A DNA stretch of 64,000 nt. It comes from Candidatus Pacearchaeota archaeon. GTDB taxonomy: Archaea > Nanobdellota > Nanobdellia > Pacearchaeales > GW2011-AR1. Made by a program: the position numbers and the translations under genes. Positions 19,841-54,984 of the stretch are shown here, piece after piece; the stretch's first letter is position 1, and the number at the start of each line of letters is the position of its first letter. The stretch is taken from the NCBI GenBank assembly GCA_016188825.1, contig JACPHA010000011.1:7427-71426 (forward strand). Reading direction: 5' to 3'. The notes under the pieces are model-generated. The model was not told where the DNA came from, did not search any database, and was given only the letters and a program-made list of their open reading frames with translations.

Positions 19841-19964
19841 TCAAGGAACTTGACAGAAGTTCCTTGAACATGTCAAGAATTTCCAATTCTTGAGCACACC
19901 CAAGAATTTAATTGTCGGAATTCTTGGTGTCCAAAAGTCCAAACACACACAAGGACTTTTTGAT
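19841..19964 (+). repeat. multi-hairpin intergenic repeat, family A copy A1
   Basis: Four hairpins: CAAGGAACTT/AAGTTCCTTG, CAAGAATT/AATTCTTG, CCAAGAATT/GAATTCTTGG, AAAAGTCC/GGACTTTT. Ends in TTTTTGAT. Confidence 0.8.
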
Positions 19965-20055
19965 TGTTAATATTTTGTGGAGTTGCTATAAATTCCTATG
20001 GACTAATTTTTCTAATTGCAGAAAACTTTAAATAAGTAAGTTTTGATTGATAAAA

Positions 20056-20268
20056 ATGGGGAGAGTAAAATCATTGATGATAAAGCGAGTTGCCAATGAG
20101 CTGATGGACGAGACGGTAGAATTTAGTGATAGCTTTGAAACTAACAAAAAGCTTTTAAAGAATGCTTTTCAATATAAATCAACTAGGAACAAGATTGCGG
20201 GCTACATGGCGCGACTTGTCAAAAAGCAAAAACTCAAGCAAGATACACCAAGAACCATGACTGAATAA
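20056..20268 (+). CDS. rps17e: 30S ribosomal protein S17e
   Basis: MGRVKSLMIKRVANELM...FSDSFETNKK matches the eS17 N-terminus. The ATG at 20056 lies inside the longer tracked ORF. Confidence 0.85.
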   Translation: MGRVKSLMIKRVANELMDETVEFSDSFETNKKLLKNAFQYKSTRNKIAGYMARLVKKQKLKQDTPRTMTE

Positions 20269-20269
20269 T

Positions 20270-20590
20270 ATGGAACAAAAAGCAAACGAAAATTTACAAA
20301 AAGAGAACAGGAGCGGGAATGACAATATTGTTTTCATTGGAAACAAGCCGTTGGTTAATTATATAAGAGGGGTTATCATGCAGTTCTTGAAGAAAGAGGC
20401 TTCCGAAGTTGTTATAAGGTCAAGGGGAAAATTTATTTCGAAGGCAGTTGATGTTGCAGAGGTTTCTAGAAGGTCTTTAGACGACAAGAAACCAGTGAAG
20501 ATAAAGGCAATAAACATCGGCAGCGAAAGTTTTGAGGCAGAAGGAAAGAGGACAAATATTTCAACAATGGACATTGTTTTGGGGAGTTGA
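20270..20590 (+). CDS. albA: DNA/RNA-binding protein Alba
   Basis: 106 aa. NIVFIGNKP...YIRGVIMQF...VVIRSRGKFISKAVDVAEV...INIGSE pattern. Confidence 0.85.
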   Translation: MEQKANENLQKENRSGNDNIVFIGNKPLVNYIRGVIMQFLKKEASEVVIRSRGKFISKAVDVAEVSRRSLDDKKPVKIKAINIGSESFEAEGKRTNISTMDIVLGS

Positions 20591-20716
20591 ATCATAACCC
20601 CTAGCTTATCCGAGACAATTGCTCAATTCTTTTTTTCATAATAGGGTTTTGAGAGATGATAACTTTATAGCATATGGAGGCGTAAGATTTATGAGTTTGC
20701 TTTGTATTCTGGAATT

Positions 20717-21010
20717 ATGAAGCAGATTATTTATTATCTTATCGCCGGAACAAAAGGAGGCGAAACAAGAGCGAAAGTTATTGATGCAATAAAGAAAAAA
20801 CCGCAAAATGCTTATCGGCTGGCTAAAAAATTAAAGTATGATTACAAGACAGTGCAGCATCATCTTGATATTTTAATTGACAATGGCATATTGGAAAAAA
20901 AGGGAGCTTACGGGGGAGTCTATTTTATTTCTCATTTAATGGAAGAGAATATGGCTATTTTCAATGAAATTTGGAAGAAACTTGGGAAGAATTCTGGAAA
21001 ATCTATTTAA
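20717..21010 (+). CDS. ArsR-like winged-helix transcriptional regulator
   Basis: RAKVIDAIKKKPQNAYRLAKKLKYDYKTVQHHLDILIDNGILEKK is a typical ArsR/wHTH recognition region. Confidence 0.7.
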   Translation: MKQIIYYLIAGTKGGETRAKVIDAIKKKPQNAYRLAKKLKYDYKTVQHHLDILIDNGILEKKGAYGGVYFISHLMEENMAIFNEIWKKLGKNSGKSI

Positions 21011-21060
21011 TATGATTTTTATTTTTAATAGCATCAAACTGAAAGGAGGTAAAAATAAAT

Positions 21061-21357
21061 ATGAGGTCTTCAATCATCGGTTTTTTTGTGATTGCCTTGA
21101 CTGTCTTTAGCATGCTGATTGTTAGTGCAGACCCAGTAGAAAAAACAGAAGGATTTGTATGCCCTGTTTTTAATTCCAATTCTGCTGTTGGTGAGCACAA
21201 TCCAAATGCTGTTCAGATTGGGCAAGGAGATTATAGTGTTATCGGCCCCGATGTCAGTGTTCCAGTTCATGCAACCAATGGAGACGGAGCAGGAACGCCA
21301 GGAGGCGAGCATTCTTCTCCTGGAGACAGCGACTATAGTGCGGCCTGGAGCGGCTAA
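21061..21357 (+). CDS. small secreted protein
   Basis: 98 aa with a signal-peptide-like N-terminus (IIGFFVIALTVFSMLIVSADP). Strong GGAGGT Shine-Dalgarno 8 nt upstream. Higher GC than the surroundings. Confidence 0.55.
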   Translation: MRSSIIGFFVIALTVFSMLIVSADPVEKTEGFVCPVFNSNSAVGEHNPNAVQIGQGDYSVIGPDVSVPVHATNGDGAGTPGGEHSSPGDSDYSAAWSG

Positions 21358-21368
21358 TAAGAAAAAAA

Positions 21369-21396
21369 TTTTTTTTATTTTTCTTTTTCGTTTTTT
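21369..21396 (+). terminator. oligo-T tract, putative archaeal intrinsic terminator
   Basis: TTTTTTTTATTTTTCTTTTTCGTTTTTT lies directly after the stop of 21061-21357. Confidence 0.4.
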
Positions 21397-21436
21397 CAAA
21401 AAATATAAATAGGCAGACAAATGCTTAGAATAGAAA

Positions 21437-21721
21437 ATGGCAGTAATGATGACGATATCGATAATAATCTCGTTGATTAACATAATCTTGATTCTATTGC
21501 TCCTTTATGTTTATGGAAAAAATTTTGTGAGAATGAGGTCAGGATTTACAGCAGGGCTTTTTATTTTTGGACTCTTGTTTTTGATTCATAATATTTTGTA
21601 TTTGTATTTTATTATTTCAATGATGTCATATTATTCCGAAAATGCCCAGATTTTTGGGTTTGTTTTTAATTTATTGCAGGCTTTCGCGTTTTTTGTTTTG
21701 AATATAATTACTTGGAAGTAA
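21437..21721 (+). CDS. small integral membrane protein (3 TM segments)
   Basis: 94 aa, almost entirely hydrophobic segments. Confidence 0.5.
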   Translation: MAVMMTISIIISLINIILILLLLYVYGKNFVRMRSGFTAGLFIFGLLFLIHNILYLYFIISMMSYYSENAQIFGFVFNLLQAFAFFVLNIITWK

Positions 21722-21737
21722 ACTCTGATTTATTCTA

Positions 21738-21986
21738 TTAATTTTTCTTTTTTTCAACTGTTTTTAAAATTCTGTCAATTTTTTCTTCTATTCTGACAAC
21801 GTCGTTTTTGAGGGTATAGACCATTTTTAGCCTTTTGTGGTTTATTATCCAATTTATTATATGCAGAATAAGCCAGATTATTATTATGATTCCTATTGCC
21901 TGTAGCCAGAGGCCTATTTTTCCAACTAAGGCTAAGAGATCTGTGCCGGCAACAAAAGGCCCTGGGACAACTTCTTCGATAGCCAT
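21738..21986 (-). CDS. small membrane protein
   Basis: 82 aa with one or two TM segments (LWLQAIGIIIIIWLILHIINWII) and a charged C-terminus. Confidence 0.45.
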   Translation of the reverse strand: MAIEEVVPGPFVAGTDLLALVGKIGLWLQAIGIIIIIWLILHIINWIINHKRLKMVYTLKNDVVRIEEKIDRILKTVEKKKN

Positions 21987-22053
21987 TTTCTCTTTGTTTG
22001 TAATAAACAGAATAACAGCATACTTAAAAACCCTTTTAATTTTTCTTCTTTGA

Positions 22054-22127
22054 GGCTCTGTAGCTCAGATGGTTAGAGCGCCGCTCTCATGAGGCGGAGG
22101 TCGGGAGTTCAATTCTCCCCGGAGCCA
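22054..22127 (+). tRNA. tRNA-Met (anticodon CAT; could instead be the CAT-type tRNA-Ile2)
   Basis: Acceptor GGCTCTG/CGGAGCC, D-arm GCTCAGATGGTTAGAGC, anticodon loop CTCATGA, T-arm GGGAG-TTCAATT-CTCCC. Confidence 0.85.
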
Positions 22128-22365
22128 TTTTTATTCTATGCATAAAATGGCATCAATTATTTTAAATTTGATATTACCTCTTAATTCGTGAGTATTTGCC
22201 CATCTTGCATAAGCATACCAACCCTGATAACGGCCTCCCGGCTTTCTTTATGTCTTAAACTAATGAATAACGCCTCTTTGCTTTGGCAAAGGGATGAATT
22301 GCACAATGAATTAATTTCAAATATAGAAATGATACCTTTTTAAAGCGAATATTTTTTGTTTTTTC

Positions 22366-23577
22366 ATGCAAGAAAGAATAGAAGAGAAATCCTTTCCAAA
22401 TAATTTAGAAGATAGATTGGCAATTATAGCGAACGCCCTAAACACAGAGTTTAAGTCAGCTATTTTATTGCATTTGGATGATACTCCAAGAGAAGCTCCT
22501 GAAATCAGAGTAAAAGTCAGAGAAACTATTGGAAGAGGATATTTGCCATCCAAATCAACCTTCGGAACTTACGGAGATACTTTGCATGAAATTGCTTTAG
22601 TTGCAAAGAAAACAATAACAAGAGACACTGGAGAAGTAGAGTATATCGGCTACAGTTTAACAGAGGCAGGAAAAACATATGGCCTGCCGTGCGCTGTTTT
22701 AAGTCTAAGATATGCTGTTGATAATAATATTAGCATGTTTCAAATTTTAGGTTCTACCGCATCTCCAGGAGAGAGCAGAGCCCCCTATAATAGAATCAGA
22801 ATTTTGAGAGAGTTAAGAAATTCTGAAGAATTAAGAGAAATAGATTTAAAAGAAGCTTTAGATTTATACGGATACACGGTAAGAAATCATTTAGATGGTT
22901 TAGTAAAAATTGGATTTGTTGAATTTGATTCAGTCGGAGCAAAAACAAAAGGAAAATATAAATTTCAATGGATAAAAAGTAAACCTCTTGATAAAGTAGA
23001 AGCTGTTAGACATCATACTACTTTAACAAGAAGAGTTGCAGAGTGTTTAGCTAATAATGATAAGGCTTTTGATTATAATGAATTAAGCAAGGTTTTGAGA
23101 TGTGGCAATGTGCAAAATATTTCTACTGTTCTTTGTGGTTTGGAAAGACAAGGTCGCGTGATAAGAATTTTTCCATGGAAAGCAGGAGAGTTAATGTCAA
23201 AAGTAAGAATTTTGGACAATGGAAGAAAATTTCATGATGAATTGTATTTGCCCTTAACAGGGCTTTTATCTGATAGTTCATTAGAAGTTTCTAGACAGGA
23301 GCAAGAAACTTTTAGAGAATCTCAAGAGTATGCAAATTATATCAGAAGAGGAATTGAATTATACAGAAGAGTTTCTCCCAACATCAATAAAAAATCTCCT
23401 GAAGAAAGAATAGAAGAAATTAAGGCTTTGTTAAGAAATAAACCTGGAATGACATCAAGAAAAATTGCTGATATTTTAGGAATTTCCTGGATGAGGATTA
23501 CTAAATATCTTAGTCAATTAAGCAAAGAAATAAGAATAGAAGAAGAAGGTAATGAAGTTAGATATTTTTCAGGGTGA
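22366..23577 (+). CDS. hypothetical protein with several winged-helix-like repeats
   Basis: 403 aa with at least three wHTH-like stretches, for example PGMTSRKIADILGISWMRITKYLSQL and YNELSKVLRCGNVQNISTVLCGLERQGRV. Confidence 0.45.
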   Translation: MQERIEEKSFPNNLEDRLAIIANALNTEFKSAILLHLDDTPREAPEIRVKVRETIGRGYLPSKSTFGTYGDTLHEIALVAKKTITRDTGEVEYIGYSLTEAGKTYGLPCAVLSLRYAVDNNISMFQILGSTASPGESRAPYNRIRILRELRNSEELREIDLKEALDLYGYTVRNHLDGLVKIGFVEFDSVGAKTKGKYKFQWIKSKPLDKVEAVRHHTTLTRRVAECLANNDKAFDYNELSKVLRCGNVQNISTVLCGLERQGRVIRIFPWKAGELMSKVRILDNGRKFHDELYLPLTGLLSDSSLEVSRQEQETFRESQEYANYIRRGIELYRRVSPNINKKSPEERIEEIKALLRNKPGMTSRKIADILGISWMRITKYLSQLSKEIRIEEEGNEVRYFSG

Positions 23578-23594
23578 GCTGTTAGGATTTTGTA

Positions 23595-23948
23595 TCATTC
23601 AATTACTTTAATGCCATCGCCTTCTTTTCTTGGAACTATGTGCAGATGGGCATGCTTTACAACCTGCCCTGCGGGCTCAAGGTTATTCATTAAAATGTTA
23701 AAGCCGTCGCCGAATTTTTTTTCCAGCAAGAAAGAGGAAACTTCCTTTGTGAACTGTAAAAGTTCTTCTCCAAGCTTGTTTGGCAAATCCAATAAAGTGA
23801 CAAAATGTTTTTTTGGAATGATTAATGTATGCCCTTGGGTTTTTGGATGCGCATCATAGACTGCAAAAAAGTTATTTGATTCTTTTATTCTTTCTGTGCT
23901 TATTTCTCCCCTGGATATTTTGCAGAATATGCAATCTTGTTTTTGCAT
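23595..23948 (-). CDS. HIT-family (histidine triad) nucleotide hydrolase/transferase
   Basis: 117 aa. CIFCKI N-terminus and HAHLHIVPR histidine triad. Confidence 0.9.
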   Translation of the reverse strand: MQKQDCIFCKISRGEISTERIKESNNFFAVYDAHPKTQGHTLIIPKKHFVTLLDLPNKLGEELLQFTKEVSSFLLEKKFGDGFNILMNNLEPAGQVVKHAHLHIVPRKEGDGIKVIE

Positions 23949-24086
23949 TTTTTTATGAAGAACGGGGGATATTTAAAGGTTTTTTAGTGAATGGCTTTGT
24001 TAAATAAGCAGTTTTTATAAAAAAGTTATTTTAGTTAATTATTTAAGAATACAAATTTTATTTTCTATGATGAAAAAATTAGATTT

Positions 24087-24251
24087 ATGGGAAATGTAGC
24101 GTATATTCTATGGATTTTATATAATGGAATTGATGAAGGATTTAAAGACATTGGAATTGTGCAAATAGTCTCGCTTATTGGATTGTTAATCTTGTTAGCT
24201 TTAAACATATTCCTTCTTTGTAATTCTGTTAAAAAAGTAAAAAGGAATTAG
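24087..24251 (+). CDS. possible small membrane protein
   Basis: 54-aa ORF (MGNVAYILWILYNG...LIGLLILLALNIFLL), below the ORF-track cutoff. Family A copy A2 starts 34 nt after its stop. Confidence 0.25.
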   Translation: MGNVAYILWILYNGIDEGFKDIGIVQIVSLIGLLILLALNIFLLCNSVKKVKRN

Positions 24252-24284
24252 GACTTATTTAATAAAGCCTTAGTGAATTTTTGT

Positions 24285-24347
24285 TATGTCAAGAATTTCC
24301 AATTCTTGAGCGTGCAAAAGTCCAAATACACACAAGGACTTTTTGAT
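24285..24347 (+). repeat. multi-hairpin intergenic repeat, family A copy A2 (short form)
   Basis: TATGTCAAGAATTTCCAATTCTTGAGC...AAAAGTCCAAATACACACAAGGACTTTTTGAT. Lacks the middle hairpin. Confidence 0.8.
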
Positions 24348-24378
24348 TAATAGTCTTTAGAAAAAAATTAGAAAAAAA

Positions 24379-25200
24379 TCAGTTGACATGAAGTTCCTTG
24401 AAAATTCCGGTGTAGAAACTTTCTCTTAGAATATCGCGGTTAACTTCTTCTTTTCTGAAGCTGAGAGAAAAGAATTTTCTCCAGAAAGAACTTTGCTCTT
24501 TGCTTAATGTTAGTGCTGCTCCGAGCCTGTTGATTTCTTTTGCGAAAGAAGAGTTGTTTTTGTAAATTGAAATTGGGATGCGTGTGAATACGGATTTCGT
24601 TGCATACTTGTCATCTGGAATCATGGCCATAACAGGGATGTTTAGAGATTCTTCCATTTCATCTAGAGTTAATTCGTATTTTGGATCTCTGATTTTGTTT
24701 ATTATGATTCCTGCAATCGGCCTGCCTCTTTGTTTTGCCAATTTTGCTGCTTTTAGTGTGCAACTTAATGTGGGATAATCAGGAGTTGAAACGACAAATA
24801 AGGCATCAGACGCGAGCATTGTTGAAAGCATTTCTTCGTTTAGGCTTGGCGAGGAATCAAGAATGATGAAATCATAGTTATTTTTTATTTTTCCAATTGC
24901 TTCTTTTAGTTTTCCATAGTTTAATTTTTTATTATATACGTAATCTCCGGGAATTACGTCAACACTAAATTTTTTATGTATCGCGTTTTGAATTTTTATT
25001 TTGTTATCTAGAACATGATGGATAGTTTTATCTGGGCTTATTATGTCCATGTGCAATCCAAGGTTCGGAGCGGAGTAATTTGTGTCAACTAGGAGAACTT
25101 TTTTGCTGTAGTTGTTTGCCAAATCAGAGGCAAGCGAAGCAGAAATTGTAGTTTTGCCCACACCCCCCTTTATGGCAACAATGCCGATTGTTTTAGCCAT
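24379..25200 (-). CDS. MinD/ParA/Mrp-family P-loop ATPase
   Basis: MAKTIGIVAIKGGVGKTTI deviant Walker A and DSSPS Walker B region. The ATG at 25200 is preferred over the longer tracked ORF. Confidence 0.8.
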   Translation of the reverse strand: MAKTIGIVAIKGGVGKTTISASLASDLANNYSKKVLLVDTNYSAPNLGLHMDIISPDKTIHHVLDNKIKIQNAIHKKFSVDVIPGDYVYNKKLNYGKLKEAIGKIKNNYDFIILDSSPSLNEEMLSTMLASDALFVVSTPDYPTLSCTLKAAKLAKQRGRPIAGIIINKIRDPKYELTLDEMEESLNIPVMAMIPDDKYATKSVFTRIPISIYKNNSSFAKEINRLGAALTLSKEQSSFWRKFFSLSFRKEEVNRDILRESFYTGIFKELHVN

Positions 25201-25392
25201 CTCAATTATAGAAAACTGGTATTTAAAAGACTTTCGAAATTTGATTTTGAAAATCAAGTATTAGTATTTGCAATAAAATAGTGTTTTTATTAATTTTTAT
25301 CTTGCTAAATTAATTGTTAACGATAAATTAAATATTTATTAAGGCTAATTAGGTTAATAATGTGATGAAAAATAGACAAAACACCAATTACT

Positions 25393-26019: not shown

Positions 26020-26031
26020 TGTTGGTTATTT

Positions 26032-26808: not shown

Positions 26809-26835
26809 TTGTTTTTCATTGCACTCAACAGCAAA

Positions 26836-28172: not shown

Positions 28173-28478
28173 ATGATGGTTGTCAAAATAGATTATGTCA
28201 AGAATTTCCAATTCTTGAGCACACCCAAGAATTTAATTGTCAGAATTCTTGGTGTCCAAAAGTCCAAACACACACAAGGACTTTTTGATGATATTTGCAT
28301 ATGGGGTAAGGGAAAAAGAGAGAGCAGTTACGCTTGTCGAGAAGAAGAGGGTTGTGTTGGCGTCTGCCTGACTAAGGCCCCGTACAGAAATGATAAAATC
28401 GAGATTGTAGAAGAGCTTTGCACTGACTGCAGAGCATGCGTTGACAGATGCGATCTTGGGGCATTGATAATAAAATAA
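28173..28478 (+). CDS. Cys-rich ferredoxin-like small protein; N-terminal third is encoded by repeat copy A3
   Basis: The C-terminal CTDCRACVDRC is a CxxCxxCxxxC 4Fe-4S motif. The only in-frame start codons lie upstream of the repeat. Confidence 0.35.
   Translation: MMVVKIDYVKNFQFLSTPKNLIVRILGVQKSKHTQGLFDDICIWGKGKRESSYACREEEGCVGVCLTKAPYRNDKIEIVEELCTDCRACVDRCDLGALIIK
28194..28289 (+). repeat. multi-hairpin intergenic repeat, family A copy A3
   Basis: Near-identical to 19871-19964 (three hairpins). Confidence 0.8.
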
Positions 28479-29968: not shown

Positions 29969-30063
29969 TGTAAAAAATAGGAAAAAGGATATTTAAATTG
30001 TTTCGTGATGTTAATTCGAGTTGTAAGCCTTACAACAAGGGGTTTTTTCGTAGTGATGTAAAA

Positions 30064-30279
30064 ATGTTAAGATTTAAGGTTTGTTTTTATTTTTCTCTTT
30101 ATCATCTTCGTCGCTATCTGGGTGGAATTATTTTTATTTGTATTGGTATATTGGTTTGGAAGAAAGTTGCACCAATGAAAAGAGAATCAAAATTAGAATC
30201 TTTGCCTATGGTGGAAAAGAGCCGGTCAGATTTTTATGACAGAGTAATTGATCATCACTCAAAATTAAATCATCGATAG
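30064..30279 (+). CDS. possible small membrane protein
   Basis: 71 aa from ATG 30064 with one TM-like segment. Repeat A4 starts 2 nt after its stop. Confidence 0.25.
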   Translation: MLRFKVCFYFSLYHLRRYLGGIIFICIGILVWKKVAPMKRESKLESLPMVEKSRSDFYDRVIDHHSKLNHR

Positions 30280-30280
30280 T

Positions 30281-30396
30281 TATGCCAAGAATTTTTAATT
30301 CTTGAGCATCCAAACATAAAGCAACCTTCGGTTCTTTGTGCTTCAAAGTTCAAAGAACTTTGAAGAGTCCCAAACAACACACAAGGACTTTTTGAT
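30281..30396 (+). repeat. multi-hairpin intergenic repeat, family A copy A4 (variant middle hairpins)
   Basis: TATGCCAAGAATTTTTAATTCTTGAGC ... CTTCAAAGTTC-AAA-GAACTTTGAAG ... AGTCC-CAAACAACACACAA-GGACTTTTTGAT. Confidence 0.75.
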
Positions 30397-30646: not shown

Positions 30647-30721
30647 ATTTCCTCCTTTGCTTTTAGATTTTAAACTAAGAAAATATAGGCTTATAAATGT
30701 TTGTTTGATGTTAAGTCCTGT

Positions 30722-31582
30722 TTATAACTTAACATAAAGATTACTTGGATAATCTTTAATTCCCCTATGAAATCTTTTATCATTAAACCAAACCCTCCAT
30801 TCTTCTAATTTTCCGTCAATCCAATGTTTGAACTTACTTAACAAATTGACAAATTCTTCCACTAAATTTCTAATCGTCCTCTCAACTTTACCCTTATCTT
30901 GAGGATAATATGGGCGGGCAAATAGTGGATTAATTTTGTTTTCTATGCACCATTCTTTCCACTTTTCTCTGAGTTGTCCGCCATTATCAGCTAAAATATT
31001 TTCTGGCTTTATATTTAACTTCTGTAAAACAGAAGTTAATTCATCGGTTGTTGGACAATGATCAAATAGATTTAAACCTATAATAAATCTAGAATAATCA
31101 TCAATACAAACAAAAATATAATATTTCTTTCCTTCAAATTTAAATTCTTTCAAGTCAACTTGCCATAATTCATTTGCATATTTTGCTCGAAAAAACTTCC
31201 ACGTTTTTATCTTATTTTGATAACCACTAATTTTGTGTTTCTTTAGAATATTATTTATTGATGTTCTCGATAAATAAAAGTTTTGAACATAAACTTCCAT
31301 CTCCTTTAGCATAAAATCTGGAAGATTCATTAATCCCTGTTGAATTCTTGCTGTTCCCCATTTAAATGTTAATCTCATAAACAGAATCGCTATTTCAATT
31401 TCAACAGTTATTTTACTTTGTTTATTTCTAGGTAAATCTTCGAAATTTGAGTTTAGAGTTTCTGAACTCCAATACCATGTTGTTGTTCTGCTCACCCCAA
31501 ATACTTTGGCAACAACATTTATAGAGTTGCCATTCTTTATTGATTTGGTCATGAGCTTTCGTTCTTCTGGACTTAGTCTCAT
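30722..31582 (-). CDS. DDE transposase, integrase-core (rve) type, IS481-like
   Basis: N-terminal HTH (NVVAKVFGVSRTTTWYW). The catalytic region is WQVDLKEF...CIDDYSRF...ADNGGQL...YYPQDKGKVER. Confidence 0.8.
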   Translation of the reverse strand: MRLSPEERKLMTKSIKNGNSINVVAKVFGVSRTTTWYWSSETLNSNFEDLPRNKQSKITVEIEIAILFMRLTFKWGTARIQQGLMNLPDFMLKEMEVYVQNFYLSRTSINNILKKHKISGYQNKIKTWKFFRAKYANELWQVDLKEFKFEGKKYYIFVCIDDYSRFIIGLNLFDHCPTTDELTSVLQKLNIKPENILADNGGQLREKWKEWCIENKINPLFARPYYPQDKGKVERTIRNLVEEFVNLLSKFKHWIDGKLEEWRVWFNDKRFHRGIKDYPSNLYVKL

Positions 31583-31611
31583 GTACTTGGGCGGACAACC
31601 GCCCACCTCTT

Positions 31612-31770
31612 TTATTTGTTTAATATCACCAAGTAAACATCTCTTCCGAGGTATTCTTTAGGACAATTTACTTTTGCACTATTTCCAACAGGAACTACCT
31701 TTCTCTTTACAAAGCCTTCTATTTCTGTCAGTATTAGCTTAGTTTTCTTCTCTATTTTTACCTTACTCAT
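31612..31770 (-). CDS. DUF2080-like transposon-encoded small protein (AbrB/SpoVT-like)
   Basis: 52 aa, MSKVKIEKKTKLILTEIEGFVKRKVVPVGNSAKVNCPKEYLGRDVYLVILNK, directly upstream of the transposase. Confidence 0.55.
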   Translation of the reverse strand: MSKVKIEKKTKLILTEIEGFVKRKVVPVGNSAKVNCPKEYLGRDVYLVILNK

Positions 31771-31985
31771 GGAGTCGAGGAAAATTCAGTGCATCACTCG
31801 GCTTTATTCAAGTTGAAGTTGCAAACAACTATATAAGAAATCAGGACAGACATCACGGAACTGTTTGGATAATAGAATAGACGTCGGAAGCCGCACTCCG
31901 CCGAAGGCGGAAGGACAAACCTTTAGGGTGCGGAGGACATCACCTAATTTTTTGGGCTTGTTTGAGAGCTTTGAAAAACTTATAG

Positions 31986-32104
31986 TGAAAGACAAAGGTC
32001 TTTCCCTAACACATCAATGACAATATAAGAATTAAAAAATCCTTAATCCTTCGCTCTTTGCAGAGCTGCAGGAAACTGGGAAAAATTAATGTCATTGATT
32101 ATAG
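31986..32104 (+). repeat. palindromic MITE-like repeat, family B copy B2 (internally deleted form)
   Basis: About 90 nt aligns with 17512-17605. Inverted termini ATCAATGACAAT / TAATGTCATTGAT. Ends 8 nt from tRNA-Cys. Confidence 0.7.
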
Positions 32105-32111: not shown

Positions 32112-32184
32112 AGCGCGGACCAGGAATCGAACCTGGGAGAAGTCGGGCTGCAGCCGACCGCAGTAACCACTGTGCCATCCGCGC
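32112..32184 (-). tRNA. tRNA-Cys (anticodon GCA)
   Basis: The reverse complement gives GCGCGGA...TCCGCGC-T (U73 discriminator), anticodon stem GTCGG/CCGAC with loop CTGCAGC, and T-arm CCAGG-TTCGATT-CCTGG. Confidence 0.85.
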
Positions 32185-39414: not shown

Positions 39415-39620
39415 GTTTTCTGTTTTTATTAAAATTAGATAATATTAGTGATATTTAAATAGATTATCGTGAATTCTGGTAATTTGGATAAATTTTTGTC
39501 CAGAATTCCCGTGAGGGATAATTCTCCAAAAACTACCCAAATCAAAATAATTATCCATAGTTATGTTGAAAGATTATGATAAATATTTGGGATTAATTTA
39601 TTGATTGCTGATAAATTAAC

Positions 39621-45393: not shown

Positions 45394-45538
45394 TTGTTTG
45401 CTTAATTTTTCTAAATTTGTTTTTATAGATAATTCGGATAATTGAATTATAAATTTGTTCCGAATTCTCTAATAGGACAATTCGCAGAAAAGTGATATAA
45501 TCAAACGAATTGTCCATAAAAATTATCTTTTGCGCCGT

Positions 45539-49091: not shown

Positions 49092-49137
49092 GGATTTTTT
49101 TACATTTTTATTAAGCTGAATGTAAATTGTTGGATGA

Positions 49138-49530: not shown

Positions 49531-49535
49531 GTTGA

Positions 49536-49958: not shown

Positions 49959-50050
49959 TTTGACTATTTTTTAGGATTAATATTAGGAAATTTATAAGAT
50001 ATATAAATATTGACAAAAGGAGAGCTAATTCTATTATCTATTTTATTATC

Positions 50051-50148
50051 GAATTATAGCAGATGACAAAATATTTTGAGCAGTTTTTTGTTCATCCGAT
50101 TGATAGTCAAGACATAAATTGCTCAATTAATAATGTCATTGACTATAG
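50051..50148 (+). repeat. palindromic MITE-like repeat, family B copy B3
   Basis: GAATTATAGCAGATGACAAAATATTTTGAGCAG...GATAGTCAAGACA-19 nt-TGTCATTGACTATAG. Aligns with 17604-17700. Confidence 0.7.
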
Positions 50149-50340
50149 TAATAATTATTATAGATTTTATTAATAATCAAATATTTTTATTTTTCCATTA
50201 TTAAATTTTTAGATGCAGAGAATTCTTTCAGAATTTCTGTCTAGTCAATTCTTAAAATACTGCCTCTAAAAAAAGAATTGCCCACAGTTAAGATTTTAAA
50301 GGGAAATTGATTTATAAAGACAGGAATATAATTCAGTAAG

Positions 50341-50910
50341 ATGGATGATTTTAATAATGTAAATAGGATAAGAAATAGGGTGAAAGTTTTGTGGGGATTT
50401 TTGTTTTTTATTTTAGCTCTGTCTATTTTACATTCTGCTTGGCACATATATTATTTTGATGCCTCTGTTTCTGATATTTTTGGAAAGGGAATTTCCGGAC
50501 TTTTGATTGGGAAAGCAGATGTTGGAGAGGAAATTAAAAATTTTGTATATGGAGAATCAGTGTCGAAAATTTTTGTTTTGGCGGAATGGATTTTGATATT
50601 TTTAGCGATTTTGTTATTGTATATAGAGAGGAAAATGGGCCACAAGAAGGAGCTTTTTGTTATAGGAAATGATTTAAGGAACAACATAAGGAGATCTGGG
50701 ACTGCGACTGATTTAGATGTTTTGTATGATTTGCTTAAAGAAAGAAAACGCTTGAGCATTTCTGCGATTGCCAGAGCGTTTAATGTCAGTAGAGATTTGG
50801 TTATGGAATGGGGAAAGATATTTCAATCTAAGGAGATTGCAGAGATAGAATATCCGTTGTTTGGACAGCCAGAAATTGTTTTTAATGAAAAAGATTATAA
50901 AAAGAAATAA
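50341..50910 (+). CDS. membrane protein with a C-terminal wHTH-like domain
   Basis: 189 aa with two TM segments, then LDVLYDLLKERKRLSISAIARAFNVSRDLVMEW. Confidence 0.5.
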   Translation: MDDFNNVNRIRNRVKVLWGFLFFILALSILHSAWHIYYFDASVSDIFGKGISGLLIGKADVGEEIKNFVYGESVSKIFVLAEWILIFLAILLLYIERKMGHKKELFVIGNDLRNNIRRSGTATDLDVLYDLLKERKRLSISAIARAFNVSRDLVMEWGKIFQSKEIAEIEYPLFGQPEIVFNEKDYKKK

Positions 50911-50923
50911 AAGTAAATAGAAC

Positions 50924-52963
50924 ATGAAAAAAAGAGGTAAAGCAGAGCATAAAGAAGAGAAAAAAGCAAAACCCGAAAAAAGAATCGAAGACAGAAAGTT
51001 AAGAGCGGAAACAAAGAAAATTTTGCAGAAATTAACTTTTGATTTTGGAAAAGCCGATAAGGAATTTTTTCAAGATAAAACTACTGTGAAAGAGGAAGAA
51101 GAAAAAACACCGACGCCGGAATTAAAAAATGAGACAGAGAGCAAGGCTGAAGAAGGCATGCAGGAACAAGCGGCGCAGATTGAGCCAAAGGATCTCGAAA
51201 GAAAACAAATAAATGAGGGTTATTCAAAGTTCCCGATTAAAAAAGAAGAACCAGAGTTAATTAATAGGATTGTTGGAAAAACTGAAGGGGAAAAAGCTGA
51301 AAAATTTGAAGAATTAGAAGAAGGAGAAAAGGGAGAAGGAATTTTTGAGGAGGAAGGTGAAGAGGATAATTTTGAAACTGAGAGAGCTGAAATAGAGAGG
51401 AAACTTGAGGCAGTTAAGAAAGGAGAAAAAGAGACTAAAGTTATAGAGCTGAGACATCCTGCCTACAAAGGAAAGGCCAAGGTTCTGGAGGTTTATGAAA
51501 TTGACGTTGATGGAGCGAAAGTAAAGGTTGAGATAACAAAAGACCAGATGGGCACCAATTATAATCTGCATATACCAAGAGTAAGCCCCGCCACGGCGGC
51601 GCTGCTCGAAGAAATTAGGAATGAGCTCATAAGTGCGACGACGATAAGCATGAAAGAGCTTGTTGATCCGGATTCTTTTTCTTTTTTGAAGAAGAGGTTT
51701 ATTGAAGATGCGAGAAAAGTTTTGAAAGAGAAGCTTCCTAATTTAGAGAGAGTCCCTGAAAATTTTCTTGTTGGAATCTTAATACAGGAAATGCTTGGCT
51801 TGGGAAAAATAGAATTTTTGATAGAGGACCCGAATCTTGAAGAGATTGTAATTCCGTCGGCGAAAGAATACATAAGAGTTTACAGCAAAAAATATGGCTG
51901 GCTTTTAACAAATGTAAAAGTGGAAAGGGAGGAGGAGATAGTTAATTATTCTAATATAATAGCGAGGAGAGTTGGGAGGCAGATAACTGTTTTGAATCCT
52001 TTGCTTGATGCGCATTTGGTTACAGGAGACAGGATTAACGCAGTTTTGTATCCGATAGATACCAAAGGAAACACGATAACAGTCAGAAAATTTGCGAGAG
52101 ATCCCTTTACGATAATTGATTTTATTAATAACAATACTTGCAACCCGGAAATTTCTGCGCTGCTTTGGCTTGCGATAGAGTTTGAGATGAATATACTGAT
52201 TTCCGGCGGAACAGGTTCTGGAAAAACTTCTTTTTTAAATGCGTGCCTTCCGTTTATACCGCCGAACCACAGAATTATCAGTATTGAAGATACGAGGGAG
52301 CTTGTGCTGCCTGAATTTTTGTACTGGACTCCTCTTGTAACAAGAACTGCAAACCCTGAAGGAAAGGGAGAAGTCAGCATGCTTGATTTGCTTATTAATT
52401 CATTAAGAATGAGGCCTGATAGAATTGTCCTCGGGGAAATGAGAAGGCAACAGGAAGCAATGGTTTTGTTTGAGGCAATGCATACAGGACATTCTGTTTA
52501 TGCCACTGTGCACGCAGATACCGCTGCTGAAACTATTTCAAGACTTGTTAATCCTCCACTGAATGTTCCTCCGAATTTATTGAGGGCGGTTAATTTGAAT
52601 GTTGTTATGTTCAGAGACAGGAGGAGGGGCATAAGGAGAGTATTACAGATTGCAGAGCTAGAGGCATCAAAGGGAGGAGCGCAGGCAAATATTTTATATA
52701 GGTGGAGTCCAGAGTTGGATAAGATAATCAAGCACAGCGAGAGCTTCAGATTTTTTGAAGATGTTAGCAGGCACACGGGAATGTCACAGGCAGAGATTAA
52801 AAAGGACATAGAAGAAAAAATAAAAATTTTGTCCTGGCTTGTTGCTCACAGTGTCAGAGACATGGAATCGTTCGGCAATGTGATGAATTTGTATTATAAG
52901 AATAAAGAATTTCTTTTGCGCGCAATAAATAGAGGAAACAAGAGCGCAATTCTTGGGAAATAA
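50924..52963 (+). CDS. type II/IV secretion-family ATPase (FlaI/PilB/TadA-like) with an N-terminal Glu/Lys-rich extension of about 200 aa
   Basis: Walker A ISGGTGSGKTSFLN, IISIEDTREL, RMRPDRIVLGEMR, TGHSVYATVHA. Confidence 0.9.
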   Translation: MKKRGKAEHKEEKKAKPEKRIEDRKLRAETKKILQKLTFDFGKADKEFFQDKTTVKEEEEKTPTPELKNETESKAEEGMQEQAAQIEPKDLERKQINEGYSKFPIKKEEPELINRIVGKTEGEKAEKFEELEEGEKGEGIFEEEGEEDNFETERAEIERKLEAVKKGEKETKVIELRHPAYKGKAKVLEVYEIDVDGAKVKVEITKDQMGTNYNLHIPRVSPATAALLEEIRNELISATTISMKELVDPDSFSFLKKRFIEDARKVLKEKLPNLERVPENFLVGILIQEMLGLGKIEFLIEDPNLEEIVIPSAKEYIRVYSKKYGWLLTNVKVEREEEIVNYSNIIARRVGRQITVLNPLLDAHLVTGDRINAVLYPIDTKGNTITVRKFARDPFTIIDFINNNTCNPEISALLWLAIEFEMNILISGGTGSGKTSFLNACLPFIPPNHRIISIEDTRELVLPEFLYWTPLVTRTANPEGKGEVSMLDLLINSLRMRPDRIVLGEMRRQQEAMVLFEAMHTGHSVYATVHADTAAETISRLVNPPLNVPPNLLRAVNLNVVMFRDRRRGIRRVLQIAELEASKGGAQANILYRWSPELDKIIKHSESFRFFEDVSRHTGMSQAEIKKDIEEKIKILSWLVAHSVRDMESFGNVMNLYYKNKEFLLRAINRGNKSAILGK

Positions 52964-52964
52964 A

Positions 52965-53846
52965 ATGGAGTTCAAGATACCTTTTACAATATCTTCACTT
53001 GACAGGCTGAAAAAAAGAGCGCAGTATTTTAAGAAATACATAAGATACAGAAAAGATTCACGGCTTCAGAAGTATCTGGAGAATTGTGATGTTACCATAA
53101 CAAGAGAAGAATATCTTTCGATATGCCTAAAGGGTTTTTTTATTTCTCTTTTGGTTTTGTTTCTGTTGTCTTCGACAATTCTTGTTCTATTGAGCATTAG
53201 CAAAGCCATTTTGTTTTCTTCAGGCTTGTCAGTTGTTTTTTCGTCTTTTATTTTATTCACCCGAATAATTTATCCTAAAATTTTCAGCGCGAGAAAAGAG
53301 AGAGAAATAGAGAGAAATTTAATTTCTGCTTTGCAGGATATTCTTGTTCAGCTAAATTCCGGAGTGCCTTTGTTCAGCATAATGGTAAATATTTCTTCTT
53401 CTGATTACGGCGCTTTGAGCAAGGAATTTAAGAAAGTTGTTAAGAAGATTAATGCGGGACTGCCTCAGATTGATGTTCTCGAAGAAATAGGAGAGAAAAA
53501 TCCGTCTATTTACTTTAGAAGAACGCTTTGGCAAATAAGCAATGGATTGAGAGCGGGAAGCGACATTTCTATTATTATAAGAGAGAACATAAAGACATTA
53601 AATGAAGAGCAGCTGATTCAATTGCAGAATTACGGAAATAAATTAAATCCATTAGTAATGTTTTACATGCTCATATCGATTATAATCCCTGCGCTTTCGA
53701 TAACTTTTTTGACTGTTGTTTCTTCTCTTGTTAATCTAAACAGTTTTCTTACAACTTTGATGTTCATAGCTTTGTTTGTTTTTGTTATTTTAATTCAGAT
53801 TATGTTTTTAGGAATAATTAAATCGGCAAGGCCTAATTTGTTGTAA
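52965..53846 (+). CDS. pilus/archaellum platform protein, single T2SSF domain (TadB/TadC/FlaJ-like), first of two
   Basis: 293 aa. ALQDILVQLNSGVPLFSIMVNIS...EFKKVVKKINAGLPQIDVLEEIG flanked by TM helices. Confidence 0.75.
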   Translation: MEFKIPFTISSLDRLKKRAQYFKKYIRYRKDSRLQKYLENCDVTITREEYLSICLKGFFISLLVLFLLSSTILVLLSISKAILFSSGLSVVFSSFILFTRIIYPKIFSARKEREIERNLISALQDILVQLNSGVPLFSIMVNISSSDYGALSKEFKKVVKKINAGLPQIDVLEEIGEKNPSIYFRRTLWQISNGLRAGSDISIIIRENIKTLNEEQLIQLQNYGNKLNPLVMFYMLISIIIPALSITFLTVVSSLVNLNSFLTTLMFIALFVFVILIQIMFLGIIKSARPNLL

Positions 53847-53847
53847 A

Positions 53848-54801
53848 ATGAAAAAAGAAATAATAAAAAAGAGCGAAACAAAAACTCTGCAGAAAAAGAA
53901 AACTAAGGAAAAAGGGTTTGGCAGGAGAAAAGAGTTTTTGATCGCAGTTATTGCAGGATTGTTAGTTTCAACGCTTTTTGCTATTTTCACCAAAAGCTTT
54001 TTGAAAACAGTGATTTCATTTTTTGCTTTTTTTGTTTTATTTGTTTTTTATTTTATTGTCAAAGCCAGATTGAAGAAAAATGCCGAGATTAGAAGGATGG
54101 AAGAGGTTTTTCCTGATCTTATTGAACTTATGGCTTCTAATCTTAGAGCGGGAATGACAACTGACAGGGCGCTATTGTTAAGCTCGAGGAAAGAATTTGC
54201 TCCCTTGGATAAGGAGATACTTCAGGTAGGGAAAGATATTGTAACGGGAAAGGAAATGACCCGCGCTTTAGAAGAAATGGCCATAAGAATTAATTCTGAA
54301 AAAATTAAGAAAACAGTTTTACTTATAAACTCCGGAATTAGGGCGGGCGGAAATTTATCTGTTTTGCTGGAAGAGACCGCTATCAATATGAGGGAGAAGG
54401 AATTTGTTGAAAAAAGGGCGGCATCAAATGTTTTAATGTATGTCATTTTTATTTTCTTTGCGGTTTCAGTTGGGGCGCCAATTTTGTTTGGGCTTTCTTC
54501 TGTGCTTGTGGAAATTCTTACAAATGTTCTTGCGAATGTTGAACTGCCGAGCGGGCAGGGAAATGTAAATGTGCCTTTCACGTTGACAAAGGTAGGCATT
54601 TCTGTTAACTTTATTGTTTATTTTTCAGCTCTTTTTATTATCATTACAGACGTTTTAGCTTCTTTGGTTTTGGGACTGGTGAGAAGCGGCAATGAAAAAG
54701 ACGGCCTGAAATACACTTTGATTTTGATTTTAATCAGCATTAGTGTTTTTTTCGCCACAAGAGGCATCCTTTTAAATTATTTCAGTGACTTTTTTCGATG
54801 A
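53848..54801 (+). CDS. pilus/archaellum platform protein, single T2SSF domain, second of two
   Basis: 317 aa. FPDLIELMASNLRAGMTTDRALLL...IVTGKEMTRALEEMA flanked by TM helices. Starts 2 nt after the previous stop. Confidence 0.75.
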   Translation: MKKEIIKKSETKTLQKKKTKEKGFGRRKEFLIAVIAGLLVSTLFAIFTKSFLKTVISFFAFFVLFVFYFIVKARLKKNAEIRRMEEVFPDLIELMASNLRAGMTTDRALLLSSRKEFAPLDKEILQVGKDIVTGKEMTRALEEMAIRINSEKIKKTVLLINSGIRAGGNLSVLLEETAINMREKEFVEKRAASNVLMYVIFIFFAVSVGAPILFGLSSVLVEILTNVLANVELPSGQGNVNVPFTLTKVGISVNFIVYFSALFIIITDVLASLVLGLVRSGNEKDGLKYTLILILISISVFFATRGILLNYFSDFFR

Positions 54802-54851
54802 GGATGGCAAAGAAAGCGCCCAGTTAAGTTTTTATATGCTTTTTGTTTTAT

Positions 54852-54984
54852 TATGTCAAGGAACTTGACAGGTTCCTTGAGCACGAGAGAATTGCTGGCA
54901 ATTACAATTCTCTGTGCAGAAAATTCCTGACGTGAAGGAATTTTCTTGCATCCAAAAGTCCCAAACACCCAAGGACTTTTTGAT
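54852..54984 (+). repeat. multi-hairpin intergenic repeat, family A copy A5 (four hairpins, variant middle)
   Basis: CAAGGAAC/GTTCCTTG, AGAGAATTG/CAATTCTCT, GAAAATTCC/GGAATTTTC, AAAAGTCC/GGACTTTT. Ends TTTTTGAT. Confidence 0.75.

What the first reader, a model, noticed from the sequence alone, without database searches (positions are those of the whole stretch)
19841..54984. Family A: a modular multi-hairpin intergenic element, five copies, all in the same orientation
Copies lie at 19841-19964, 24285-24347, 28194-28289, 30281-30396 and 54852-54984. Each starts with TATG(T/C)CAAG(A/G)AA and ends with CCAAAAGTCC-(A/C)AACA(C)n-AAGGACTTTTTGAT. The first hairpin (TCAAGAATT-n3-AATTCTTGA) and the last (AAAAGTCC-12 nt-GGACTTTT followed by T5) are conserved. 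The middle carries 0-2 hairpins whose sequence varies but whose stems stay perfect, for example CCAAGAATT/GAATTCTTGG, CTTCAAAGTTC/GAACTTTGAAG, AGAGAATTG/CAATTCTCT and GAAAATTCC/GGAATTTTC. In the three-hairpin form the four arms CAAGAATT / AATTCTTG / CAAGAATT / AATTCTTG could pair alternatively, like an attenuator. Four copies begin 2-65 nt after the stop of a + strand ORF (30279, 24251, 54801, 19775), and the terminal hairpin plus U-tract looks like an intrinsic terminator. Possibilities include a structured 3'-end or terminator module, a REP/BIME-like element, or a small RNA family. I do not recognise it as a described family. Lone hairpins of related style (GAATTC-containing stems) occur at 39461-39505, 45431-45466 and 45475-45515.
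Basis: seen in the sequence. Interest (0 to 1): 0.62.

Follow-up and report, generated by a model that had tools for sequence, protein, structure and literature searches.

The report
Mobile modular hairpin repeats, DPANN archaea
The five look-alike multi-hairpin stretches are copies of a small, apparently undescribed "jumping" DNA repeat that is spread through the tiny genomes of Woese-/Pacearchaeota (DPANN archaea) and can even land in frame inside working genes; they are not a dedicated terminator or small-RNA gene.

Summary
The window holds exactly five copies, all on the + strand, of an element bounded by ATG(T/C)CAAG… and …GGACTTTTTGAT. The same element, 58-200 nt long, occurs about 80 times in 72 loci from roughly 25 species-level MAGs of Woese-/Pace-/Nanoarchaeota.

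It is a mosaic of hairpin modules: a 5' module A, optional modules B, C, D, E and F, and a 3' module T. The stems covary strongly and almost only through Watson-Crick pairs (P1: 539 WC, 6 G·U), which points to a DNA-level constraint.

It behaves as mobile DNA. A 75-nt copy sits in frame in one DUF2238 gene, while about 370 homologues lack it, including a 93%-identical one whose empty site was read at the nucleotide level. The window's own copy 3 is a 93-nt in-frame insert in a small ferredoxin-like gene. Other copies lie in LeuRS and in an MCM intein.

Copies follow a T(T/G)AT target, with at most 2-3 nt of duplication, no terminal inverted repeats and no linked gene. Orientation relative to neighbouring genes is random. 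No conserved promoter exists, and the "T5 tract" is base-paired.

The terminator and sRNA options are not. The mobilising enzyme is unknown.

The parts
19841..19964 (+). Copy 1 (124 nt): extra A-type hairpin 19841-19869, module A 19870-19895 (ATGTCAAGAATT-tcc-AATTCTTGAGC), module F 19896-19930 (ACACCCAAGAATT...GAATTCTTGGTGT), module T 19931-19964 (CCAAAAGTCC-loop-GGACTTTTTGAT)
   Evidence: 46.1 bits; z -6.2; 94/95 identical to copy 3; same A-A-F-T layout in L019
24285..24347 (+). Copy 2 (63 nt): minimal A+T form, 33 nt after the stop of a 54-aa membrane ORF (24088-24251), in a 430-nt gap between ParA-like and HIT genes that are 1 nt apart in relative L089
   Evidence: (50.7 bits)
28194..28289 (+). 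Copy 3 (96 nt; A+F+T): in-frame insertion (93 nt, 28197-28289, after ...GATTAT) in a small ferredoxin-like gene
   Evidence: Homologues P0259 and P0260 align to MVVKIDY before the copy and to C-x-W/L-G... after it, and lack the 31 residues
28173..28478 (+). Host ORF of copy 3: small CxxCxxCxxxC ferredoxin-like protein (about 69 aa without the insert)
   Evidence: (Fer4 20.2 bits, cutoff 21.1)
30281..30396 (+). Copy 4 (116 nt): module A, then two extra hairpins nested between CATCCAAAC and AGTCC of the T module; begins 2 nt after the stop of ORF 29998-30279
   Evidence: 30.4 bits; z -6.5; the fold shows CCAAA...TTTTGAT enclosing three hairpins
54852..54984 (+). Copy 5 (133 nt): A (TCAAGGAAC stem) + B (AGAGAATTG...) + C (GAAAATTCC...) + T; lies between the T2SSF-like gene (stop 54801) and the KaiC-like ATPase gene
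   Evidence: z -7.9; B and C conserved and covarying across 9 copies from other genomes
63212..63274 (.). Sister-family double hairpin (CCGAGAATC...GATTCTCGG + TCAAGAACCC...GGGTTCTTGA) that shares the TCAAGA/TCTTGA arm style but lacks the T module
   Evidence: weak hits on both strands; same type in L056, L072, L083, L084

Best explanation
The five copies belong to a lineage-wide family of non-autonomous, modular palindromic DNA repeats of Woese-/Pacearchaeota-type DPANN archaea.

Shown:
- The unit is ATG(T/C)CAAG...GGACTTTTTGAT, 58-200 nt long.
- It is built from a 5' hairpin module A (a 9-bp stem, often with an inner hairpin), optional nested modules, and a sequence-constant 3' hairpin T.
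- It gets inserted as a discrete unit directly after a T(T/G)AT site, with at most 2-3 nt of junction redundancy, no terminal inverted repeats and no gene of its own.
- It settles mostly just behind genes, in either orientation.
- It is occasionally tolerated in frame inside genes, including the window's own copy 3.

Inferred:
- The stems are kept by selection on a folded single DNA strand, because only master copies that still fold can be copied.
- The invariant T hairpin, with ATC...GAT clamping its foot, is the handle recognised by a trans-acting enzyme that cuts after (T/G)AT at both the target and the element's end. This would be an HUH/Y1-type single-strand transposase mechanism like IS200/IS605 or REP-RAYT.
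- That mechanism would also explain the modest bias of the sense strand towards the G-rich (leading) strand and the 5/5 same orientation in this one-replichore window.

My odds are about 0.75-0.8 for 'selfish/mobile palindromic DNA repeat' and about 0.35 for the specific HUH-like single-strand mechanism. Any terminator or RNA-stabilising effect would be secondary.
For: Distribution: the exact 3' module was found in 72 archaeal loci from about 25 genomes, often several per genome. DNA depth over the copy-1/copy-3 type is about 10-15 times that of its flanks in four metagenomes.

Insertion events:
- L079 DUF2238 gene. The occupied site is CACTTCGAT[GTCAAAG...GGACTTTTTGAT]AATTTGG. The empty site in L086/L087 is CATTTTGAC|AATTTAG. 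The insert is exactly 75 nt and is absent from about 370 homologues.
- Window copy 3 is a 93-nt in-frame insert in a ferredoxin-like gene.
- LeuRS carries a unique insertion containing a copy. An MCM intein hosts an antisense copy. L056 is a further case, and in L046 the ORF's C-terminus runs into a copy.
- Syntenic gaps of 1 nt and 30 nt in relatives correspond to 430 nt and 403 nt in the window, holding copies 2 and 3.

Target: T at -2 in 89% of copies and T or G at -1 in 88%, while the right end is always TGAT.

Structure: 96.9% of cells are paired versus 83.7% in shuffles (0/500), and 15 pairs show double changes. Over 63 copies and 33 different arm sequences, P1 has 539 WC, 6 G·U and 2 A·C pairs. 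Modules B and C covary with no one-sided changes. T-stem covariants exist.

No promoter signal. Gene-relative orientation is random, with gene 3' ends favoured over 5' ends 35 to 15.

Strand bias: 44 of 62 copies (p=0.0013) and 19 of 26 genomes (p=0.03).

Near-identical copies at unrelated sites: copies 1 and 3 are 94/95 identical.
Against: No mobilising enzyme was found. No protein family recurs near copies (largest cluster 4 of 72 loci). The window's rve transposase has no homologue near other copies and shares no ends with the element. No A-gene-T autonomous form was seen.

No excision or absence variants were seen in four DNA runs of this population.

The strand bias is modest, at 71%, and rests on a home-made correction for gene strand.

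The 5' hairpin varies in sequence while the 3' one is constant. This differs from IS200/IS605, where both end hairpins are alike, and there is no room for a left guide between the cut site and hairpin A.

The T-loop is more alike within genomes (0.72 vs 0.59) while the P1 arms are not. A simple burst model does not explain this.

An RNA role cannot be excluded, because no transcript data exist.
Confidence: 0.75

Rival explanations
1. Cis-acting RNA element: the copies are transcribed as 3'-UTR modules that terminate transcription (T5 run) and/or protect mRNA 3' ends from exonucleases, as proposed for some bacterial REP and SPRITE elements. Proliferation would be secondary.
For: Copies lie next to gene 3' ends about 2.5 times more often than next to 5' ends (35 vs 15). 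In the window, four copies follow + strand ORFs within 2-65 nt. The T stem has A4 before it and T5 after it, so T runs exist on both strands. The folds are very stable.
Against: There is no sense/antisense preference relative to the adjacent gene (15 vs 20; 29 vs 26). Sense-oriented copies with the T5 run sit inside intact essential ORFs such as LeuRS and the window's ferredoxin-like gene. The T5 run is base-paired. G·U pairs are almost absent, which is unusual for selected RNA helices (my own knowledge). Archaeal termination needs oligo-T, not a hairpin (established knowledge). The bias towards gene 3' ends is also what purifying selection on insertions would produce.
Confidence: 0.12
2. Independent small-RNA gene family: each copy is its own gene, with a constant 5' hairpin, variable middle and constant 3' hairpin/terminator, acting in trans.
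For: The boundaries are sharp (ATG...TTTTTGAT). Stem covariation is strong. The element is conserved across many species. Some copies have TATA-like AT-rich boxes upstream, by eye.
Against: There is no positionally conserved TATA/BRE from -40 to -3. Copies lie inside ORFs and in an intein. Module content and length vary from 58 to 200 nt. There is no Rfam match. Conservation continues into the flank (T at -2), as expected for an insertion target. No RNA runs were found.
Confidence: 0.05
3. Host-function DNA sites: the hairpins or palindromes are binding sites for a host protein (nucleoid organisation, gyrase/IHF-like binding as for BIMEs, or replication/segregation signals), and the host maintains them for that purpose.
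For: The T module and the GAGCATCC linker are invariant across divergent species while the stems covary. The T-loop is genome-specific, as expected if it co-evolves with a host factor. Orientation correlates with replication-associated skew, as for polar chromosome motifs.
Against: Loop lengths between palindrome arms vary from 3 to more than 40 nt, so this is not a fixed duplex operator. Copy number and position differ between relatives. Insertion into coding sequence is hard to reconcile with a positional host function. No candidate protein is known.
Confidence: 0.08

Closest known systems
REP / BIME / REPIN elements of bacteria (mobilised by RAYT, a Y1 HUH transposase)
   Same: Short hairpin-forming repeats in many dispersed copies that assemble into mosaics of modules. 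They lie mostly behind genes and between convergent genes, have no gene of their own, and occasionally sit inside genes (PMC3733652). The stems are kept by complementary changes.
   Different: There is no GTAG or CGTC tag. Units have several hairpins and span 58-200 nt, with distinct 5' (A) and 3' (T) ends rather than one 20-40-bp palindrome or inverted doublets. The host is archaeal (DPANN). No RAYT was found or testable here.
Rickettsia palindromic elements (RPEs)
   Same: Palindromic repeats of about 100-150 nt that insert in frame into protein-coding genes of a reduced genome and are translated as extra peptide segments (PMC10969869). Here this holds for DUF2238, the ferredoxin-like gene, LeuRS, the L056 protein and an MCM intein.
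   Different: There is no sequence relation and no CGTC end. Most copies here are intergenic. The architecture is modular. The hosts are in a different domain of life.
BOX elements (boxA-boxB(n)-boxC) and SPRITE of Streptococcus pneumoniae
   Same: A constant 5' module, a variable number of middle modules and a constant 3' module. The elements nest into one another. The 3' part looks like a terminator (PMC10969869).
   Different: The sequences and hosts are unrelated. The middle modules here are several different hairpin types nested in the GAGC^ATCC linker or inside the T stem, not repeats of one boxB.
IS200/IS605-derived non-autonomous elements (PATEs, e.g. in Haloquadratum) and their TnpA
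   Same: Hairpins near both ends, no terminal inverted repeats and no real target duplication. Insertion occurs directly 3' of a short specific target (here T(T/G)AT). The element's own 3' end has the same cut-site sequence (TGAT), clamped by pairing with a trinucleotide 5' of the hairpin (ATC...GAT). There is a replication-strand orientation bias.
   Different: The two end hairpins are unlike each other. The 5' hairpin starts immediately after the cut site, leaving no space for a left guide. No parent IS or TnpA was identified. The strand bias is only about 70%.

Membership tests
REP (GTAG/CGTC-tagged palindromic repeats) | Single 20-40-bp imperfect palindrome tagged at one end by GTAG or CGTC | tested here: not met
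   The consensus ATGTCAAG...GAGCATCCAAAAGTCC...GGACTTTTTGAT has no GTAG or CGTC tag at either end, and units are multi-hairpin and 58-200 nt long. Definition from PMC3733652.
REP (GTAG/CGTC-tagged palindromic repeats) | Association with a RAYT (Y1 HUH) gene flanked by the repeats (REPtron) | tested here: inconclusive
   No recurrent protein family lies near copies in 72 loci.
MITE | Terminal inverted repeats matching a parent IS | tested here: not met
   The 5' end ATGTCAAGATGCTTG and the reverse complement of the 3' end, ATCAAAAAGTCCTTG, share only 9 of 15 positions. The window's rve IS shares no ends with the element.
MITE | Target-site duplication of fixed length | tested here: inconclusive
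   Two clean insertions show only a 2-3-nt junction ambiguity (AT/GAT). The left flank is mostly TTAT while the right end is always TGAT, so there is no 4-bp duplication.
Rickettsia palindromic elements | In-frame insertion into protein-coding genes with the ORF preserved | tested here: met
   DUF2238 (75 nt), the window's ferredoxin-like gene (93 nt), LeuRS, the L056 protein and an MCM intein.
Rickettsia palindromic elements | Sequence membership in the RPE families of Rickettsia (CGTC-ended) | tested here: not met
   There is no CGTC end and the host lineage is archaeal. This is a functional analogue only.
IS200/IS605-type single-strand transposition (PATE-like) | Insertion 3' of a specific tetra/pentanucleotide, with no TIR and no TSD | tested here: met
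   T(T/G)AT precedes 88-89% of copies, and the empty and occupied sites are consistent with this.
IS200/IS605-type single-strand transposition (PATE-like) | Orientation tied to the replication strand | tested here: inconclusive
   44 of 62 copies and 19 of 26 genomes have the sense strand on the G-rich strand after gene-strand correction (p=0.0013 and 0.03). Orientations are mixed within some contigs.
IS200/IS605-type single-strand transposition (PATE-like) | Cognate Y1 TnpA encoded by a full-length element with the same ends | not testable with these tools
None was seen in the 8-kb loci.
Intrinsic terminator / SPRITE-like terminator module | Hairpin followed by a free U tract, oriented with the upstream gene | tested here: not met
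   The T5 run is paired with the A4 run. The counts are sense 15 versus antisense 20. Sense copies lie inside intact ORFs.
Archaeal small-RNA gene | Own promoter (BRE/TATA about 25 nt upstream of the 5' end) | tested here: not met
   Base composition is flat from -40 to -3 over 61 copies. No Rfam family matches.
Integron attC site | Single long imperfect hairpin with R''/R' (RYYYAAC/GTTRRRY) cores, in arrays after single cassettes | tested here: not met
   No such core sites are present. The copies have several separate hairpins and are dispersed among housekeeping genes and tRNAs.

The most novel reading that the evidence does not exclude
The invariant T hairpin, with its ATC...GAT clamp and cut after (T/G)AT, is the substrate of a still-unrecognised single-strand DNA (HUH-like or other) enzyme conserved in Woese-/Pacearchaeota. 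This would make the family the first REP-RAYT-like or PATE-like hairpin-guided copy system described in DPANN archaea. Its modules would also insert into one another, at the GAGC^ATCC linker and inside the T stem. The genome-specific T-loop would be the specificity determinant that co-evolves with each genome's enzyme.
Probability: 0.25. Interest if true: 0.72.

Novelty: new variant of a known kind. Interest (0 to 1): 0.5.

Why it matters
DPANN archaea have some of the smallest, most streamlined cellular genomes, and nothing has been published on repeat families in them; my two full-text searches found no description. A lineage-wide, modular, hairpin-built repeat matters for four reasons:

- It colonises intergenic spacers and even essential genes (LeuRS, an MCM intein, a ferredoxin-like gene). 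This shows that genome reduction has not purged selfish DNA there.
- It is a source of in-frame protein insertions.
- It breaks short-read assemblies at every copy, as seen in the Logan unitigs.
- It implies an unidentified DNA-processing enzyme.

The element also gives gene callers false starts, because it begins with ATG and is open in two frames. In addition, it provides a ready marker for strain typing and binning of these organisms.

Tried and rejected
- Rfam, at gathering thresholds and with lax E-values: only tRNAs and noise.
- RNA evidence: no RNA runs for the window or for a KR11 groundwater copy.
- Population variants: four DNA runs carry the copies in place, with no excision joints.
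- Viral contigs: two chance hits only.
- Linked enzyme: all-vs-all clustering of 722 neighbouring ORFs found no recurrent family. The window's rve/DDE transposase (30722-31606) is unrelated to the element.
- Autonomous A-gene-T form: none found in the loci.
- Ideas considered and dropped on reading the sequences:
  - C/D-box sRNA: no C/D boxes. The TGATGA in copy 3's flank is coincidental.
  - H/ACA sRNA: no pseudouridylation pocket or ACA box.
  - K-turn in the TTGAC...AAAA internal loop: there is no GA on the opposite strand.
  - Hammerhead or other ribozymes: no catalytic cores.
  - Integron attC sites: no R'/R'' cores, and the copies are dispersed among housekeeping genes.
  - Peptide-coding mini-gene starting at the ATG: lengths are not in frame between copies, and Watson-Crick covariation dominates.
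- The 12 bacterial hits of the pattern scan are ordinary perfect terminator hairpins, i.e. chance matches. One 'Sideroxydans' contig carries a true copy and is probably mis-binned.


Full report
**1. Observation**

- The 3' motif AAAAGTCC-N12-GGACTTTTTGAT is expected 0.01 times by chance in the window.
- Repeat finding recovers the family. Copies 1 and 3 are 94/95 identical.
- A covariance model (R1) was built only from copies in other genomes. In the 64 kb it finds these five, all on the + strand, and then drops to noise.
- As single strands all five fold much better than dinucleotide shuffles (z -4.5 to -7.9).
- Rfam has no match.

**2. Distribution**

- Of 85 stretches, 72 are from MAGs labelled Woesearchaeota, Pacearchaeota or Nanoarchaeota, covering about 25 genomes with up to about 10 hits each.
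- The 12 bacterial hits are plain perfect terminator hairpins. One 'Sideroxydans' contig carries a true copy.
- The window's GlyRS is closest to Nanoarchaeota/Pacearchaeota proteins, so the window is from a DPANN archaeon of this group.
- In four groundwater metagenomes that hold the window, depth over the copy-1/copy-3 type is about 10-15 times that of the flanks, and unitigs break there.

**3. Anatomy**

Nearly every copy starts at ATG(T/C)C(A/G)A and ends at GGACTTTTTGAT. Lengths run from 58 to about 200 nt. The parts are:
- **Module A:** a 9-bp outer stem P1 (TCAAGnnnn/nnnnCTTGA). In many genomes it encloses the motif TTGAC..AAAA and an inner hairpin P2 (CCACnnnn/nnnnGTGG). The window's copies lack P2.
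- **Linker:** an invariant GAGCATCC follows module A.
- **Module T:** ATC.AAAAGTCC-loop-GGACTTTT.GAT.
- **Optional modules in the GAGC^ATCC linker:** B (ACAAGAGAATTGC...), C (CAGAAAATTCC...) and F (ACACCCAAGAATT...).
- **Optional modules inside the T stem, between CCAAA and AGTCC:** D and E. Copy 4 shows this arrangement.
- **Nested hairpin:** some T loops hold a nested GCGGACT/AGTCCGC hairpin.

The 'variable' middle hairpins of the window are thus conserved optional modules shared with other genomes.

**4. Covariation**

On 19 simple-form copies:
- 96.9% of cells pair, against 83.7% in shuffles (0/500).
- 15 of 27 pairs show double-sided changes.
- Slid controls give 23-45% pairing.

Over 63 copies:
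- P1 has 33 different arm sequences, with 539 Watson-Crick, 6 G·U, 2 A·C and 14 other pairs.
- P2 has 196 WC, 13 G·U and 5 A·C pairs.
- Modules B and C show 8 of 20 pairs with double changes and none with one-sided changes.
- T-stem covariants appear once the search is not tied to the exact motif: AGAAGTCT/AGACTTCT, AAAAACTCC/GGAGTTTTT and AAAAAACT/AGTTTTTT.

The structure is clearly selected. The near absence of wobble pairs fits a DNA hairpin, or propagation only from perfectly folding master copies, better than it fits a long-lived RNA helix. That last comparison rests on general knowledge of RNA families.

**5. Relation to genes**

- With crude gene calls, the upstream gene is co-oriented 29 times and opposed 26 times. 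The downstream gene is co-oriented 21 times and opposed 36 times.
- With symmetric criteria and ORFs of at least 40 aa, within 60 nt of a copy: a sense ORF ends just upstream in 15 cases, an antisense ORF ends just downstream in 20, and gene starts abut in 9+6 cases (n=51).
- Copies therefore favour gene 3' ends, regardless of sense.
- Upstream positions -40 to -3 show only background composition, so there is no TATA/BRE.

These results argue against both a dedicated terminator for the upstream gene and a self-transcribed sRNA gene.

**6. Insertion events**

(a) **L079.** A DUF2238 membrane protein is 222 aa, while about 370 homologues are 196-200 aa. The extra 25 residues are the element.
- DNA of a relative 93% identical outside the insert gives the empty site AAGTCTCATTTTGAC|AATTTAG.
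- The occupied site is AAGTCTCACTTCGAT[GTCAAAG...GGACTTTTTGAT]AATTTGG.
- The insert is exactly 75 nt, with the register ambiguous within GAT.

(b) **Window copy 3.** ORF 28173-28478 reads MMVVKIDY-[31 residues of element]-DICIWGKG...CTDCRACVDRC.
- The only distant homologues (69 and 75 aa) align to both the N-terminal MVV.I/V.D/E.Y and the part after the copy, and they lack the 31 residues.
- The insert is 93 nt and follows ...GATTAT.

(c) **L015.** LeuRS has a unique insertion of about 60 aa in a variable loop. The first half of it is a sense-oriented copy.

(d) **L078.** An antisense copy is read through inside the intein of an MCM helicase.

(e) **L056 and L046.** L056 is a further read-through case, and in L046 the ORF's C-terminus runs into a copy.

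(f) **Synteny.** ParA-like and HIT genes are 1 nt apart in L089 but 430 nt apart in the window, where the gap holds a 54-aa ORF and copy 2. GlyRS and the PLDc_N gene are 30 nt apart in L090 but 403 nt apart in the window, where the gap holds the ferredoxin-like gene with copy 3. The model finds no copy at those sites in the relatives.

**7. Target and ends**

- Position -2 is T in 89% of copies. Position -1 is T in 67% and G in 21%.
- Positions +1 to +3 are T in about 52% of copies.
- Copies therefore read T(T/G)AT|GTC...TGAT|. The left flank is usually TTAT and the right end is always TGAT, so this is a target preference, not a 4-bp duplication. At most the AT is duplicated.
- The ends are not inverted repeats.
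- The element's own 3' end is itself a good target. This fits the head-to-tail junction ...CTTTTTGATGTCAAG... in L039.

**8. Orientation and replication**

- Orientations are mixed within contigs of other genomes: L026 is + + -, L064 is + + + -, L069 is - + -. The window's 5/5 is not a family rule.
- The window has positive GC skew throughout, even where genes are on the - strand.
- I separated the gene-strand component (b=0.134) from the remainder. On the remainder, 44 of 62 copies have their sense strand on the G-rich strand (p=0.0013).
- Per genome the figure is 19 of 26 (p=0.03), or 18 of 25 without the window (p=0.04).
- This is suggestive of a replication-strand bias, but it is not proof.

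**9. Two ends, two histories**

- T-loops are more alike within genomes than between them (0.72 vs 0.59, p=1e-5).
- P1 arm types such as TCGAAGTGT, TCAAAGTGC and TCAAGGAAC are shared across genomes and are no more alike within a genome (0.68 vs 0.65, not significant).
- I read the T module as the enzyme handle that co-evolves with, or is homogenised within, each genome. This is inference.

**10. Enzyme**

- None was found.
- No protein family recurs beside copies.
- The rve/DDE transposase 325 nt from copy 4 has no homologue near other copies and no shared ends.
- No autonomous form was seen.
- Viral contigs hold only chance hits.

**11. Comparison**

The family works like REP/BIME, RPE, BOX and IS200/IS605-derived PATE elements. 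The definitions come from PMC3733652 and PMC10969869. It fails the sequence-defined membership tests:
- It has no GTAG/CGTC tag.
- It has no terminal inverted repeats or fixed target duplication.
- It has no relation to the RPE families.

Two full-text searches found no description of such repeats in DPANN archaea. Earlier notes of this scan on sister windows reached similar readings. I used them only as leads. I tested one of them, the ferredoxin ORF, directly.

**12. Verdict**

This is a real, lineage-wide, apparently undescribed variant of the small palindromic mobile repeats. The mechanism, probably single-strand and hairpin-guided with insertion after T(T/G)AT, and the enzyme both remain open.

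Noticed in passing
window 30706-31945: An IS-like unit with an rve/DDE transposase (30722-31606, minus strand; rve 62 bits plus an HTH) lies next to a tRNA at 32112-32184. It is unrelated to the hairpin family: no shared ends, and no homologue near other copies.
   Followed up: partly
window 4734-4928, 13398-13495, 14311-14457: Three gene 3' ends share a repeated tail followed by a C-rich run (e.g. TAATTTCGCCCCCCTCCCCGAAATAACAAG) and an A/G-rich stretch (repeat families D1, D2, D7 and D12). This is a different repeat family of unknown meaning.
   Followed up: no
window 17501-17612 and 31975-32086: A 112-nt direct repeat at 88% identity. The second copy lies between the IS element and a tRNA gene.
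   Followed up: no
window 24088-24251: A 54-aa ORF encodes a plausible small membrane protein (MGNVAYILWILYNG...LLILLALNIFLL...). It fills part of the ParA-HIT gap that is absent in relative L089. Copy 2 starts 33 nt after its stop.
   Followed up: partly
L017 (CAYROQ010000019.1, binned as Sideroxydans): A bona fide element copy (ATGTCAAAGTG...GGACTTTTTGAT) sits at the start of a contig assigned to a bacterial MAG. This is probably a mis-binned or chimeric contig.
   Followed up: no
L078 60-3623: An MCM helicase gene with an intein (C...HN boundaries, LAGLIDADG-type part) in a Nanoarchaeota MAG. The intein itself hosts an antisense copy of the hairpin element, so one mobile element sits inside another.
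   Followed up: partly
GlyRS homologues: Nanoarchaeota/Pacearchaeota GlyRS proteins fall into two length classes, about 485-500 aa and about 553-577 aa. The cause of the roughly 70-aa difference was not examined.
   Followed up: no
L033, L052, L083 (MAG E14_metabat.bin.43): In three copies the T module is followed by the same extra sequence, TAGGGAAAGAC...TCTTTCACT. In that genome a further module travels with the element. L033 and L018 carry a T module without any A module.
   Followed up: no
L056, L072, L083, L084; window 63212-63274: A sister family is built from two A-type hairpins in inverted order around GAGCATGCTC (ATGTCAAGAACC...GGTTCTTGAGCATGCTCAAGAATTG...). It shares the TCAAGA/TCTTGA arms but has no T module.
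   Followed up: partly
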